NCBI GenBank assembly: GCA_951406725.2
Contig: OX597830.1
Span: 64,418,001-64,482,000, forward strand
Direction of reading: 5' to 3'
Length of the DNA: 64,000 bases
Origin: Octopus vulgaris
Lineage: Eukaryota
A model generated the notes under the pieces. That model was not told where the DNA came from. It did no database searches and saw only the letters and a list, made by a program, of their open reading frames with translations. The position numbers were made by a program, and so were the translations under genes. This document shows, piece by piece, positions 13,799-32,544 of the stretch (the first letter of the stretch is position 1; every line of letters begins with the position of its first letter).

Positions 13799-14178
13799 GA
13801 AGGATGATAACGAAGAGGAGTAGGAGGAGAAGGAGATGTATACTGCTGATGAAGAAGAGGTGAAGAAGGATGAAACTGTGCGTGAAAAAGCTTTGGAACT
13901 TTCATTCATTCAAAAACATTCTCTCAAATGTTAAAGATCAAGACATTTATATCGTACTTTTTTTTTTTTTTTTACATTTGAATTTAACTTCCAGCAAAAA
14001 AGAGAAAAAAAAAACACATACAAAAAATATAATAAAGCAACAAAAAATAACAAAAGTCCTACCCAGATGGTTATACAAATGCCATGATTTCAATATCGGA
14101 AATAAACACAGTTAGGTCAAACTTGGACATGATTAAACCTTGAGGTTACATCACGAAATTTTGGAGGGCTGTCAGTGG

Positions 14179-14526
14179 AATCGCACGGGCTAGGATCGAT
14201 TACCTTTGGCGCAACGAAGCTTCCTCTCGCGAGTGCGCCCTCTTAACTGTCGATGAGACCAGGTGAATACTGGCTGTGATGGAAACGGGTAAATAAGATT
14301 CAGGTTTCGAAATCCAGTGAGGAAGCATGCGAAATGTCCACAATATCCGAGGAAGGCTGTAGGCAGGGCAAGTTACCCACTCCCAGCACTGGGAGGTAGT
14401 GACGAAAAATAACGACGCGGGACTCAGTCGAGGTTCCGCAATCGGAATGAGTACACTTCAAATCCGTTAACGAGGATCGACCGGAGGGCACGACTGGTGC
14501 CAGCAGCCGTAGCAACTCAAGCTCCG
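14179..14526 (+). pseudogene. Decayed 18S rRNA fragment (about 350 nt from the 5' third of SSU rRNA)
   Basis: Collinear SSU motifs: aactgtcgatg, ccgaggaaggc, ttacccactccc..gggaggtagtgacgaaaaataac, ggaatgagtacactt.aaatcc.ttaacgaggatc, ggagggca.g.ctggtgccagcagccg. Many substitutions fall in normally invariant positions, and no other rDNA flanks it. Confidence 0.9.
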
Positions 14527-14647
14527 TAATTATTGCAAACAGTTACGTTCATCGTGATTCATTTTTGTTACACAACGTTGTTTTATACTTTAGGAATCAC
14601 TGCAGAAGACGATCGTTAGATCTGTTCATGGCTCGGATAGATAAATA

Positions 14648-14955
14648 TACATTATTTACATTTAACGGTTATTTGTCCTCATCTTGTTTCTTGTTAACAC
14701 AACGTTTCTCCTGATATACCCTCCAGCCTTCATCAGGTGTCTTGGGGAAATTTTGAACCTGGGTGCTCATTCCTAAGTTATTTTTCGATGTTATTATTAT
14801 TATTTTTATTATTTAGGTCATTGACTGGAATCGAACTCGGAATCTTGGGGTTAGTAGCCCGCGTCCTTAACCACTACACCATATGCCCGTGGGCGTACTG
14901 GTTAAGGGCGCGGGCTACTAACCCCAAGATTCCGAGTTCGATTTCAGGCAGTGAT

Positions 14956-15053
<98 letters not shown>

Positions 15054-15242
15054 TAATAATAATAACAACATCGAAAAATAACTTAGGAATGAGAACCCAG
15101 GTTCGAAATTTCTCCAAGACACCTGATGAAAGCTGGAGGGTATATCAACCGAAATGTTGTGTTAACAACAAACAAGATGAGGACAGATATCCGTCAAATG
15201 TAAATAATGTACATAATTCCTCATCTCTTTAATATAGAACTG
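14648..15242. mobile_element. Head-to-head fold-back element; each arm is a tRNA-like head + (AAT)n + hammerhead-bearing Penelope-type tail
   Basis: 14648-14888 is the reverse complement of 14891-15211 apart from (AAT)n length and point changes; centre GCCC-GT-GGGC. A-box-like TAGTGGTTAAGG, B-box-like GAGTTCGATT, and hammerhead cores at 14697-14740 (-) and 15119-15162 (+). Confidence 0.85.
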
Positions 15243-15472
15243 GATTGAGAGATATAGTCGTGGATCATGACAGTGGACGGTTACTCCACTCCAAAATTCC
15301 AACCCGAACCACAAAAGCTTGTAGCGGACAACTGCAGAAGAATTTGATCTAAGATTTAAATACTTTGTGTAGAGTTCAACTATTTACGTTCTCATCCTTG
15401 TAGACATTTCTCGTTTGGAAAAAAATACATAGTTAGGAACTAATGGTCAAATACGAAAATGATTTCGTATTA

Positions 15473-15855
15473 TCTCTCTCTATATAAACGGCAGTTTGTC
15501 TGTGTGTGTGTCTGTGTGTCTGTTAGGTTGTACCCTCACCCTGACCACCGCTTTCAACCGATTCTGATGAAACTTGATACACACATAGCCCAATGTCATA
15601 ATTCAAAGCTAACGCAGCGAAAATTTTGAAAAGTTCCCCCAGTTCTGAAAAAAATCGATAAATTCGACATGGGGTCGAGAATCAGAAACACAAACCACAG
15701 ACTGTCTAGGGGACGCAACTCGACCTTTTAACTCTCAAAAAAAATTTACCATCATTTTTTTCCCATTTTTTTGCTATTTTTTTGCAATAACTTTCTAAAA
15801 ATGCTTTATAGTTATTTCCCTTACAAACCCGAGCAACGCCGGGTGATACTGCTAG
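15473..15855 (+). mobile_element. Non-autonomous Helitron
   Basis: 5' A|TC(TC)nTATATAA, internal GTCT/GTGT microsatellite, accgattctgatgaaacttg motif, 3' hairpin ACCCG-agcaacgc-CGGGT shortly before the terminal CTAG|T; no TSD. Confidence 0.85.
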
Positions 15856-16356
15856 TTGGAGATAAAAGATATGATAAAATAAGCACTAAGACCAGCGTTA
15901 GGACTCAGTCCAGTCTGTGTTATATTTGACAATATACATATGCATGCCTCAAAAAATCATTTATACGTGCATAAAATGTATAAGTATGCGCATGCGTATA
16001 GCTCACATATGTGTAAAAATGCTTTAAAAATATATATTTATGTATAAAAAAAACCAGTATTCACATGCATAAGAAAGTTGAACAAAACTTCCATTTTGTA
16101 TTAACAGCGATCGTAGAAGCCAAATCATGCCAAACAGGAGTTGGAAAATGGTAAAAGGCAAAAACGAAAGGTGGGTAAAAAGATGAAGAGAGAGAGAGAG
16201 ATAGAGGTAGGGAGAGAGAGAGAGGGTGTTGAAATGAAATATAGAGAGTAGGAGTAATGGGTAAGAGTGAAGGAGAAGACGGGTTAGTATTCTTATGATT
16301 GTGCAAAAGGTGATTGGCATACAAAAAATAAAAAGGTGGAGCCCTGATCAATGAAG

Positions 16357-30079: not shown

Positions 30080-32309
30080 GTCTACATCATTCTGACAGTC
30101 TCCAGAGAAACAAGCAACCAACTGTTTATATACTCAACAAATGCAGCAGTTACTCTATGATGGAGTCCCTAATTTGCACACTGAAAGTGTTCAACACTCT
30201 ATGACACCCGTATGTTGTGAATTTGGTTAAAAGTGTCTATGTCGTAACTATTGGATAATTGGTGTTGTGAAAGTGGTGTTGTACCTGTGTGTTAGTTGCG
30301 TGTGTTGTCGAGCAATATGTACCGTAAGTATGTAGTAGTTTTGTTTAAAAACAATGAAAAAAAGGCGATGCATACCCTGCGTGCAGATATTTTTTTCACA
30401 AACTATAGTGTCGCTTGCAATGCGTTGCCTATCCATGTTTTTTAATAGAACTAAACTAAGCTTTTTTTTTTTTAGGTATTACCGTTATAAGTATTTATAC
30501 TCCGGTGAAACCCTTGAATCCATCACTGTGTACAGACACACACAGACAGATTCGCATATCTATGTATATATTTATGTATATATGAACCTACGCGCATAGT
30601 TATAGGTACTCCATGGTCGATACACACGCAGGCGAGGGTCGATTCATATGTAAAAGAAAGTGAACAAAATAATATGACCACATTCTTATCGGGAAATTTG
30701 TTAGTTCGATTTAAAATTTTGTTCATCATTTCGAGCCACTCACCCCATGAGTATTTCTACCAAATGTGGTGAAAATCCGTTCTGCCGTTTTCCAGTAAAT
30801 TTGCAAAAACACAGACAAACAGGCAAAGACGAGTTATTACAATACCCTACTTTCGTTCACTCGTGTAGAGTAAAAAAAAAAAAGAAAGATATTGTAACTG
30901 GATGCCAGTTGTGTATTTGTTGTTGCAAAGCGGCAGGTTGGCAGAATCGTTAGCACGCCCGGGTTAAATGCTTAGCGGCATTTCGTCTGTCTCTACGTTC
31001 TGAGTTCTGCCAGCTCGTCGCATTTTACTGTTGAAATATTAAATACATTTATGAAGTCTATGAATGAATGTTACCATGAAATATATATCGTAATGCTAGA
31101 AATATGAGGTGCAAATGTCATGGTGAAATGAATGTCGTAAATATCTTAGCTCAATGTCACTCCACCACCACGACCATCACCACAGACCAGAAATAATTAT
31201 AACATTACTTACCCCCACCACTACACTTTTACATTGAATCGACAACACCCTGTCTCTACATAAATGTCAAGGGATGAAGATTTTTTTATTTACTTTACTT
31301 AGTAGAGGAGAAAAGAGCGTCGTCATGACCCCACTTCAGGGTCTTCATTGTTAATGAACAGACGGGAGCAAGTTTCGGCTTCACTGATAAGAACAGAACA
31401 GTTTGCTGCGAAAGACACGCATAGGATAGGTAGTGATGTTAAAAAAAAGGGGGCAACTGATTGGATATCACATCATCACGTGATCGACCAGACTACTGGA
31501 TGTTGTAATAAATCGCTGTTCTTTTTTAAGTATCACCATTATAAGGATTTATTGTTTGTCCCTTCATAAGGGCCGGTCTTCCGGCCTCCTTGGCGTATAG
31601 CTTCCCCACCTGGACGGGACACCGGTCCGTCGCAGGTAAGCTGCATGAGGAAAGAGTGAGAGAAAGTTGTGGCGAAAGAGTCAGCAGAAGTCCGCCATTA
31701 CTTTCTACCGGAGCCGCGTGGAGCTCAGGTGTTTCGCTCATAAAAACACACACATCACCCGGTCTGAGATTCGAACCCACGAACCCTCGACCGCGAGTCC
31801 GCGACTCTAACCACTAGGCCATGTGCCTCCACATAAGTATTTATACTCCGGGGAAATTAAGAAATCAACTCGTAAATAAACGAAACCCTCGAATCCATCA
31901 CTGTACAAACACATGCACACACACGCAAACGCATGCACACACATACACACAGATCGCGTATCTGTGTATATATTTATGTATGTACCTACGCGCATAGGTA
32001 CTCCATGATCTGTACACACGCAGGCGCAATGCACTTGGCATAGTTTTAGCTTTCGAATAATGCCACCCTGTTGACTAGGCAAACAGGCCAATATCCTCCC
32101 CCCTCCTGATCGGAAAGCTATTCTGTCGCAGAGTTTCTCATTTACAGCTGTGTGGACTGGAGCAACGTGTGAAGGACACAACGCGCCGCTCAATTCAGGA
32201 ATCGAACCTACGATCTAGCGTTCATGAGTGCAATACACTAACCACTAGGCTACTCACCTCCACAATTAAATATACCTCTTACTAAATTAAATATACCCAA
32301 GATTCAGTC

Positions 32310-32368
<59 letters not shown>

Positions 32369-32544
32369 GTCTGTCTGTCTGTCTATCTACATACGTGTGA
32401 ATATATACGTATGTGATACAGAAGATGGGAAAAGCTGTACAATCACCTGTGGGATTCGAACTTAGAGTCTGTCGTTAACTGTAGAGCTCTGCTAACCACT
32501 GCACCAAAGCGACATTAGAACCAGCCAGTGATCATACTGGTTTC

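What the first reader, a model, noticed from the sequence alone, without database searches (positions are those of the whole stretch)
14648..15242. Fold-back element joining a tRNA-like Pol III head to a hammerhead-bearing Penelope-type tail: candidate PLE-mobilised 'ribozyme SINE'
Seen: two arms head-to-head around GCCC-GT-GGGC. Each arm reads GGGCATATGGTGTAGTGGTTAAGG.CGCGGGCTACTAACCCCAAGATTCCGAGTTCGATT (A box, anticodon-like arm, B box; the right arm lacks 7 nt), then (AAT)n of very different length, then about 60 nt, then a hammerhead. Each arm's hammerhead has different defects, but their consensus is intact: ACAC-CTGATGA-A-GGCTG-loop-CAGCC-GAAACGTT-GTGT. Known: minimal type I hammerheads with palindromic stem III mark Penelope-like element (PLE) terminal repeats, and PLEs often insert as inverted repeats; classical SINEs borrow LINE 3' tails instead. 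Inference: this is a tRNA-headed non-autonomous retroelement using PLE machinery and ribozyme processing, with divergent Pol III promoters and a hairpin of about 240 bp if read through. I do not know this architecture as a described class.
Basis: partly seen in the sequence, partly recalled or inferred. Interest (0 to 1): 0.85.

Follow-up and report, generated by a model that had tools for sequence, protein, structure and literature searches.

The report
Penelope retrotransposon with tRNA-type promoter
The hairpin is a decayed head-to-head pair of terminal repeats of a Penelope-type jumping gene that itself carries a tRNA-derived piece; most short copies begin just before that piece, so it likely served as an RNA polymerase III promoter, which is not the promoter type described for such elements.

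Summary
The inverted repeat, A/B boxes, (AAT)n and hammerhead consensus are real. But the unit is not a stand-alone SINE that borrowed a tail. It is the whole pseudo-LTR of an autonomous Poseidon-type Penelope-like element (PLE): the head follows the GIY-YIG stop in 29 of 30 endonuclease copies, and the hammerhead 'tail' is the first ~50 codons of the ORF. The fold-back, the one-sided ~30-nt extension (31 of 34 pairs) and ~12-bp target duplications (21 of 34) are ordinary PLE insertion marks. The ribozyme shows no sign of cutting the copied RNA. What is unusual: a tRNA-derived A/B module sits inside the autonomous element's repeat; 30 of 34 arms that reach it stop within -10..+8 of one base 13 nt before the A box; the 2.4-kb unit has no T4 run in its majority sequence (weak, P 0.08-0.15); and an unrelated PLE has the same layout (L299). 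Likely reading: a Pol III-type start site yields repeat-only, SINE-like copies. Pol III use is untested.

The parts
14645..14894 (-). Left arm: pseudo-LTR copy from unit base +1 to tail position 146 (short form, ends in the AATGTAAAT repeats)
   Evidence: 75/80 and 137/146 identical to family majority
14815..14894 (-). tRNA-derived head of left arm; +1 (14894) is the family's preferred 5' end
14871..14881 (-). A box (intact)
   Evidence: sequence
14828..14836 (-). B box (intact)
   Evidence: sequence
14791..14814 (-). (AAT)n linker, short
14645..14790 (-). Start of the PLE ORF (likely ATG at 14770) overlapping the hammerhead
14696..14741 (-). Minimal type I hammerhead, stem II broken by two changes
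14885..14894 (.). Head-to-head junction; 10-nt near-palindrome at the unit start, 3-nt GGC overlap with right arm
14892..15242 (+). Right arm: pseudo-LTR copy from unit base +15 to tail position 180 (long form)
   Evidence: 62/66 and 166/180 identical to family majority
14892..14957 (+). Truncated head; A box broken, B box 14936-14943
14958..15068 (+). (AAT)n linker, expanded
15089..15242 (+). First codons of the PLE ORF (a stop at codon 48 in this copy); residues 8-27 match the N-terminus of relative P0003
   Evidence: 10/20 identical, E 8e-4
15118..15163 (+). Minimal type I hammerhead, three changes in stem II and core; predicted cut after 15158
15215..15242 (+). One-sided ~30-nt extension, the PLE 'tail'
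14635..14648 (+). Possible decayed target duplication, left copy (11 of 14 match; below my threshold)
   Evidence: read by eye
15242..15255 (+). Possible decayed target duplication, right copy
   Evidence: read by eye

Best explanation
The hairpin is a decayed, ORF-less insertion of two pseudo-LTR copies of a Poseidon-type Penelope-like retrotransposon whose own terminal repeat begins with a tRNA-derived A/B-box module that likely acted as an internal RNA polymerase III promoter. Shown: the autonomous unit reads ORF (RT, C-terminal GIY-YIG) - stop - 25 nt - head - (AAT)n - hammerhead/ORF start; short copies mostly begin 13 nt upstream of the A box; pairs have one long and one short arm inside one ~12-bp target duplication. 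Inferred: RNA starts at that base; the PLE protein primes reverse transcription inside the RNA at two sites ~30 nt apart just past the hammerhead (as shown for Anolis PAc), so priming near the RNA's 5' end gives repeat-only cDNAs; the two nicked target strands each prime one cDNA (one per start site), and the two cDNAs are joined head to head at the terminal palindrome or at 2-5-nt overlaps. The hammerhead rides along uncut. Whether the RNA with this start was a short Pol III transcript or the 5' end of the full-length RNA is open. Odds by step: PLE pseudo-LTR 0.97; a real RNA 5' end at +1 0.85; made by Pol III 0.65.
For: Head after the endonuclease stop in 29 of 30 and tail in 28 of 30 protein-selected loci. 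Tail runs straight into the ORF N-terminus in L162 and in 23 of 30 N-terminus-selected loci; relative P0003 (55% identity) has the homologous N-terminal peptide. 38 of 58 tail-selected insertions have an inverted partner, 31 of 34 scorable pairs are long+short, 21 of 34 have a target duplication against 5 of 300 mismatched flank pairs. 30 of 34 arms reaching the head start stop at -10..+8, against 5-19% expected from background truncation; genome-wide 289 of 1858 exact head starts carry the ORF-side 10-mer, about 26% after a decay factor of 0.59; RNA reads and contigs show loose ends at the same base (393, 306, 309 reads; 58 contigs). Arms ending at +1 are also joined to arbitrary inner sites (L065, L071, L084, L020), so the end does not need palindrome self-pairing. 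In ORF-bearing insertions the partner arm runs past +1 in 6 of 8 cases that reach it (L147 left out as a separate insertion), so the two classes differ in template. Head aligns over full tRNA length with genome tRNA genes, best 44-46 of 72, z 7-8.5, with perfect A and B boxes 34 nt apart. Second, unrelated PLE L299 has A/B boxes + short AAT run + hammerhead in its repeat (chance rate 0.2 per 282 kb).
Against: No transcript end seen: RNA-seq of three runs shows no place where many molecules begin or end, and both strands are covered alike. Pol III itself was not tested. 5' ends are spread over ~18 nt, not one base. Stems of the head are decayed; no Rfam tRNA hit. Palindromes at pseudo-LTR 5' ends and fold-back junctions are known in rotifer PLEs and read there as self-priming (passages of PMC3846280), and 328 loci are exact fold-backs here. 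The only PLE promoter I read about, in Drosophila Penelope, has Inr/DPE motifs (passages of PMC2377424). 2 of 6 full-length copies that reach the 5' head run on upstream into the previous unit. The window's own target duplication is weak (11 of 14).
Confidence: 0.65

Rival explanations
1. Ordinary truncated PLE debris: a tRNA or SINE head once landed in the repeat and rides along without function; the pile-up at +1 comes from the 10-nt palindrome (self-priming or cDNA pairing) or from a Pol II start that happens to lie there.
For: 328 exact palindromic fold-backs; short fold-back remnants (AT, TAT, CATAT) before +1 in many copies; palindromes at PLE repeat starts are described; tRNA stems decayed; no RNA ends seen.
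Against: Ends at +1..+8 are also joined to flanks or inner sites without using the palindrome; both boxes and their spacing stayed perfect in the master while stems decayed; +1 lies 13 nt before the A box, the usual place for a type 2 Pol III start (general knowledge); a second PLE has the same layout.
Confidence: 0.25
2. One reading: a free-standing, non-autonomous tRNA-headed SINE with its own master copies that borrows PLE enzymes and is processed by its ribozyme.
For: Most copies are repeat-only and start at the head; roughly 34,000 arms (6963 exact 31-mers, 24 of 117 sampled arms exact) against 4651 endonuclease and 265 N-terminus candidates; the repeat has no T4 on its sense strand, so solo copies could be re-transcribed.
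Against: Head is part of the autonomous element; 52 head-start and 56 ORF-linked copies share the majority and the same linked variant pair, with no fixed difference; 181 arms run through the predicted cut site and the 79 inner starts do not peak there; no covariation in 17 hammerheads.
Confidence: 0.1

Closest known systems
Penelope/Poseidon clade of PLEs, e.g. Anolis PAc (PMC11167929, read parts 1-2 of 4: results and start of methods; PMC8557442, passages; PMC3846280, passages)
   Same: One ORF with RT and C-terminal GIY-YIG; pseudo-LTR that includes the ORF start; hammerhead over the first codons; inverted 5' copy; one-sided 30-40-nt tail; short target duplications; hammerhead cutting not needed for insertion
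   Different: Repeat begins with a tRNA-derived A/B module and an (AAT)n linker; none of the passages I read mentions this
Minimal hammerheads of metazoan PLEs (PMC4209133, read parts 1-2 of 4)
   Same: Core with no loop 3, palindromic ACGU for dimer folding, extra base before stem II; dual motifs on opposite strands 100-700 bp apart are noted there
   Different: Nothing in the ribozyme itself
Schistosoma Sm-alpha/Sj-alpha SINE-like elements (passages of PMC2770079; original papers not read)
   Same: tRNA-derived, high-copy, hammerhead-bearing short element
   Different: No autonomous partner sharing the head is named in the passages; here the hammerhead is the minimal PLE type and head and ribozyme both belong to the autonomous element
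TRIMp3: Cassandra, Helenus, Ajax (passages of PMC10886601)
   Same: Small-RNA-derived Pol III promoter inside a terminal repeat; decayed structure with kept boxes
   Different: Those are non-autonomous LTR elements; the author argues their autonomous partners must use Pol II and not share the repeat. Here the autonomous element carries the module
Animal non-LTR retrozymes (bioRxiv 10.64898/2026.07.22.740005, read parts 1-3 of 5; supplements closed)
   Same: Non-coding, hammerhead-bearing derivatives of PLE pseudo-LTRs
   Different: Defined as tandem arrays with a hammerhead per unit; these copies are solo or inverted and tRNA-headed

Membership tests
EN+ PLE, Penelope/Poseidon type | Single ORF with RT and C-terminal GIY-YIG endonuclease | tested here: met
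   569-aa open frame in L151; RVT_1 E 2.7e-6; 2923 relatives at E<=1e-20. GIY-YIG read from the motif by eye
EN+ PLE, Penelope/Poseidon type | Pseudo-LTR at both ends, overlapping the ORF start | tested here: met
   L162, L271, L280, L287
EN+ PLE, Penelope/Poseidon type | Inverted 5' copy and one-sided 30-40-nt tail | tested here: met
   38 of 58 inverted; 31 of 34 long+short
EN+ PLE, Penelope/Poseidon type | Minimal hammerhead in the pseudo-LTR | tested here: met
   Majority core intact; 21 of 195 arms fully intact
EN+ PLE, Penelope/Poseidon type | Target site duplication | tested here: met
   21 of 34 pairs versus 5 of 300 controls; weak for the window copy
EN+ PLE, Penelope/Poseidon type | Placement with named Poseidon elements in an RT tree | not tested
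   No named reference was on hand; tree uses unnamed relatives. Clade label rests on recalled motifs (no Cys-rich linker before the endonuclease) and on the PAc-like ORF start
tRNA-derived SINE (SINE2) | tRNA-derived head with A and B boxes | tested here: met
   (25 distinct tRNA genes of six isotypes compared; z 2.5-8.5); not found by Rfam or ARAGORN
tRNA-derived SINE (SINE2) | Head absent from the autonomous partner, only the 3' part shared | tested here: not met
   29 of 30 partner copies carry the head
tRNA-derived SINE (SINE2) | Own source lineage distinct from the partner | tested here: not met
   No fixed difference between 52 short and 56 ORF-linked copies; small sample
tRNA-derived SINE (SINE2) | Transcription by Pol III | not testable with these tools
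   Only indirect: 5'-end pile-up; RNA-seq gave no ends
Non-LTR retrozyme | Tandem array with a hammerhead in each unit | tested here: not met
   Copies are solo or inverted in 58 sampled insertions, with a few partial tandems
Non-LTR retrozyme | Self-cleavage and circular RNA | tested here: inconclusive
   No end pile-up at the cut site in genomic copies or RNA reads; no in vitro test

The most novel reading that the evidence does not exclude
An autonomous, protein-coding retrotransposon that captured a tRNA-type promoter and is copied from Pol III transcripts over its whole 2.7-kb length (its majority sequence has no T4 terminator), throwing off tens of thousands of SINE-like repeat-only copies as a by-product; the same design arose again in a second, distant Poseidon lineage (L299). 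It would be a SINE and its parent in one element.
Probability: 0.25. Interest if true: 0.85.

Novelty: new variant of a known kind. Interest (0 to 1): 0.55.

Why it matters
Protein-coding retrotransposons are assumed to use Pol II (or Pol I co-transcription), with Pol III left to SINEs. A PLE whose own repeat holds a working tRNA-type promoter would blur that line, show a direct route to SINE birth that needs no head-tail fusion, and give a marked RNA start that helps test how PLE inverted pairs form. It also warns that many 'unclassified SINE' entries in animal repeat libraries may be PLE repeat stubs. If the module is only a passenger, the locus is ordinary PLE debris.

Tried and rejected
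Two other abundant PLE families of the genome were tested as partners and do not share the tail: a Neptune-like family (only the query's own locus L031 of 30) and a 781-aa family (0 of 30); neither has A/B boxes in its repeat. Rfam found neither hammerhead nor tRNA in the window or in L071 and L299. Hammerhead covariation: none in 17 near-identical copies, uninformative for a one-master family. Cut-site ends: no peak. Run search: no RNA holder listed on record; three raw RNA runs of a same-label organism were laid and gave depth on both strands and no molecule ends, consistent with read-through of old copies and not decisive. T4 avoidance: 0 runs in the 2434-nt majority, but P 0.076 (dinucleotide shuffle), 0.145 (synonymous shuffle of 1698 nt), 0.008 (composition-weighted codons); several LINE frames are also low; L299 has 0 in 1695 nt of RT-EN (lowest with L315 of 47) but 2 in its first 200 coding bases. 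Common origin of the module in this family and L299: not supported, two changes needed and heads not alignable (z 1.8; FastTree only). Donor tRNA: not resolved, serine tRNAs were not in the sample. A secondary cluster of starts at +7 could be tRNA-type 5' processing but is explained as well by GGG overlaps.

Full report
Observation. The window holds two inverted arms, 14645-14894 (minus) and 14892-15242 (plus), 90-91% complementary outside an (AAT)n run of unequal length. Each has a head with A and B boxes, the AAT linker, about 55 nt, and a minimal type I hammerhead. Against the family majority the left arm covers head 1-80 (75/80) and tail 1-146 (137/146); the right arm covers head 15-80 (62/66) and tail 1-180 (166/180). 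So the '7-nt deletion' is the junction: the left arm is complete to unit base +1 and meets the right arm at +15 through a shared GGC. The right A box is broken. Both hammerheads have broken stem II pairs and neither folds as a hammerhead alone, whereas the intact copy L002 forms stems I and II. Rfam and ARAGORN call nothing here.

It is a large family. The tail gave 4398 candidates in the 2.8-Gb genome G000, the 40 scored being 94-100% identical. One exact 31-mer occurs 6963 times, control 0; 24 of 117 sampled arms carry it exactly, which suggests roughly 34,000 arms. Non-CpG divergence from the majority is 4-5%. Public runs of five organism labels hold it.

The parent. Several head-selected loci had, upstream of the head, a shared stretch that translates as the end of a GIY-YIG endonuclease. 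With that peptide as query (4651 candidates, 150 scored, best 30 fetched, one the query's own locus), the head followed about 25 nt after the stop in 29 of 30 and the hammerhead tail in 28 of 30. L151 holds a 569-aa RT-endonuclease frame. L162 is nearly full length and shows the tail running straight on into the ORF N-terminus; so do 23 of 30 loci selected on the N-terminus. The full-length relative P0003 (55% identity) begins with the homologous peptide (window residues 8-27 match 10/20, E 8e-4). This is the layout reported for Anolis PAc, whose ORF starts at the hammerhead (PMC11167929). Two other PLE families do not share the tail.

Insertion marks. Of 58 independent tail-selected insertions (60 loci, two seen twice), 38 have an inverted partner; of 34 pairs with both ends scorable, 31 have one arm with and one without a ~30-nt extension; 21 of 34 have a target duplication of about 9-13 bp, against 5 of 300 mismatched flank pairs. 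Inverted 5' copies and a one-sided 30-40-nt tail are standard PLE marks (passages of PMC8557442 and PMC3846280), and the tail was traced to two internal RT start sites in PAc. The fold-back is therefore not new.

The ribozyme. The majority core is intact and 21 of 195 arms keep core and both stems; the one subfamily change in the core is at the free position 7. 181 arms run through the predicted cut site and 79 inner starts show no peak there; 17 copies show no covariation. The copied RNA was uncut, as for PAc in vitro.

What is unusual. (a) The head aligns over full tRNA length with the genome's own tRNA genes (best 44-46 of 72, z 7-8.5; 25 distinct genes of six isotypes) and keeps perfect boxes 34 nt apart while its stems have decayed. 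(b) 5' ends pile up at its start: of 61 head-bearing arms in the tail-selected loci, 34 reach +8 or further and 30 of these stop at -10..+8, where 5-19% would be expected. In 28 independent head-start loci 18 stop there and 10 run on (my reading). Genome-wide, 289 of 1858 exact head starts carry the ORF-side 10-mer, about a quarter after decay correction, and 328 loci are exact palindromic fold-backs. Reads laid on L132 show loose ends at the same base and depth falling by about half. +1 lies 13 nt before the A box. Arms ending at +1 are also joined to arbitrary inner sites, which argues for a true template end. In ORF-bearing insertions the partner arm passes +1 in 6 of 8 cases, so both arms of an insertion tend to come from one kind of template. 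(c) Short and ORF-linked copies share the majority and the linked variants; no private SINE lineage appears in 52 versus 56 copies. (d) The majority of the 2.43-kb unit has no T4 run, but only weakly so (P 0.076 and 0.145; 0.008 under a looser null). (e) Among 79 metagenome loci of related PLEs, one, L299 (38% identity), has A/B boxes, a short AAT run and a hammerhead in its repeat, and no T4 in 1695 nt of RT-endonuclease, though two early in the ORF. It is not sister to this family; two changes are needed (FastTree), so it is a likely independent case, n = 1.

Mechanism. Shown: the architecture and the end statistics. Inferred: an RNA begins at +1, most simply by Pol III; the PLE protein binds the ORF-start region and primes internally at two sites; priming near the 5' end of that RNA yields repeat-only cDNAs; two staggered nicks prime two cDNAs, one long and one short, which are joined head to head at the terminal palindrome or short overlaps, leaving a ~12-bp duplication. 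A short Pol III RNA and the 5' end of a full-length RNA both fit; of 6 full-length copies reaching the 5' head, 2 start at +5, 2 inside the head and 2 upstream. How an uncapped RNA would be translated is unexplained.

Against. No RNA start was observed; Pol III is untested; the palindrome could account for part of the pile-up; Drosophila Penelope uses an Inr/DPE promoter in its repeat.

Known relatives and novelty. tRNA-derived, hammerhead-bearing short elements are known from Schistosoma, non-coding pLTR derivatives as retrozymes, and Pol III modules in terminal repeats from non-autonomous TRIMs. Ten searches of the open library listed no tRNA-headed repeat of an autonomous PLE; repeat databases and closed supplements could not be seen. 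Earlier scan notes mention tRNA-bearing PLE-type repeats and 5'-end pile-ups in other genomes; these are unchecked leads. Verdict: member of the EN+ PLEs, not a classical SINE; a new variant because of the promoter-like module. Interest 0.55.

Noticed in passing
window 14170-14526 (+): Decayed piece of 18S rRNA gene (Rfam E 2e-35), 81% identical to the genome's own rDNA units in an 18-kb tandem on C20; ends ~120 nt left of the element and seems unrelated.
   Followed up: partly
L190, L192, L200 upstream of 1500 in element orientation; also L019, L029, L183: The (AAT)n linker is a landing site for other elements, including what read as R4/Dong-type LINE 3' ends (label recalled), which splits head from tail.
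   Followed up: no
L299 1971-2250 (JGI1357J11328_10009043): Intact 2791-bp tandem PLE unit with A/B boxes, AAT run and hammerhead in its repeat; a stem-loop with a UUUU loop at 2219-2234 could end short Pol III transcripts.
   Followed up: partly
L032-L060, L291-L295: Very abundant Neptune-like PLE family (12,375 candidates, many long open frames) whose hammerhead-like motif has U in place of A5 of the core.
   Followed up: partly
L092-L120: Second young PLE family with many 781-aa frames and ~90-nt tandem repeats bearing CCAAT- and CRE-like motifs in its 3' region (read by eye).
   Followed up: no
family tail positions 63-82: Junctions avoid hammerhead stem II: 1 of 79 inner starts in 20 nt, against about 4 per 5 nt elsewhere.
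   Followed up: no
family ORF, endonuclease: The second GIY-YIG motif reads YKG in this family and in most of its nearest relatives.
   Followed up: no
window 15480-15860: Another dispersed repeat, 93-95% identical to copies in L003, L043, L213, L220.
   Followed up: no
window minus strand near 31770-32510: Three further A/B-box heads of other tRNA-derived repeats within about 700 nt.
   Followed up: no
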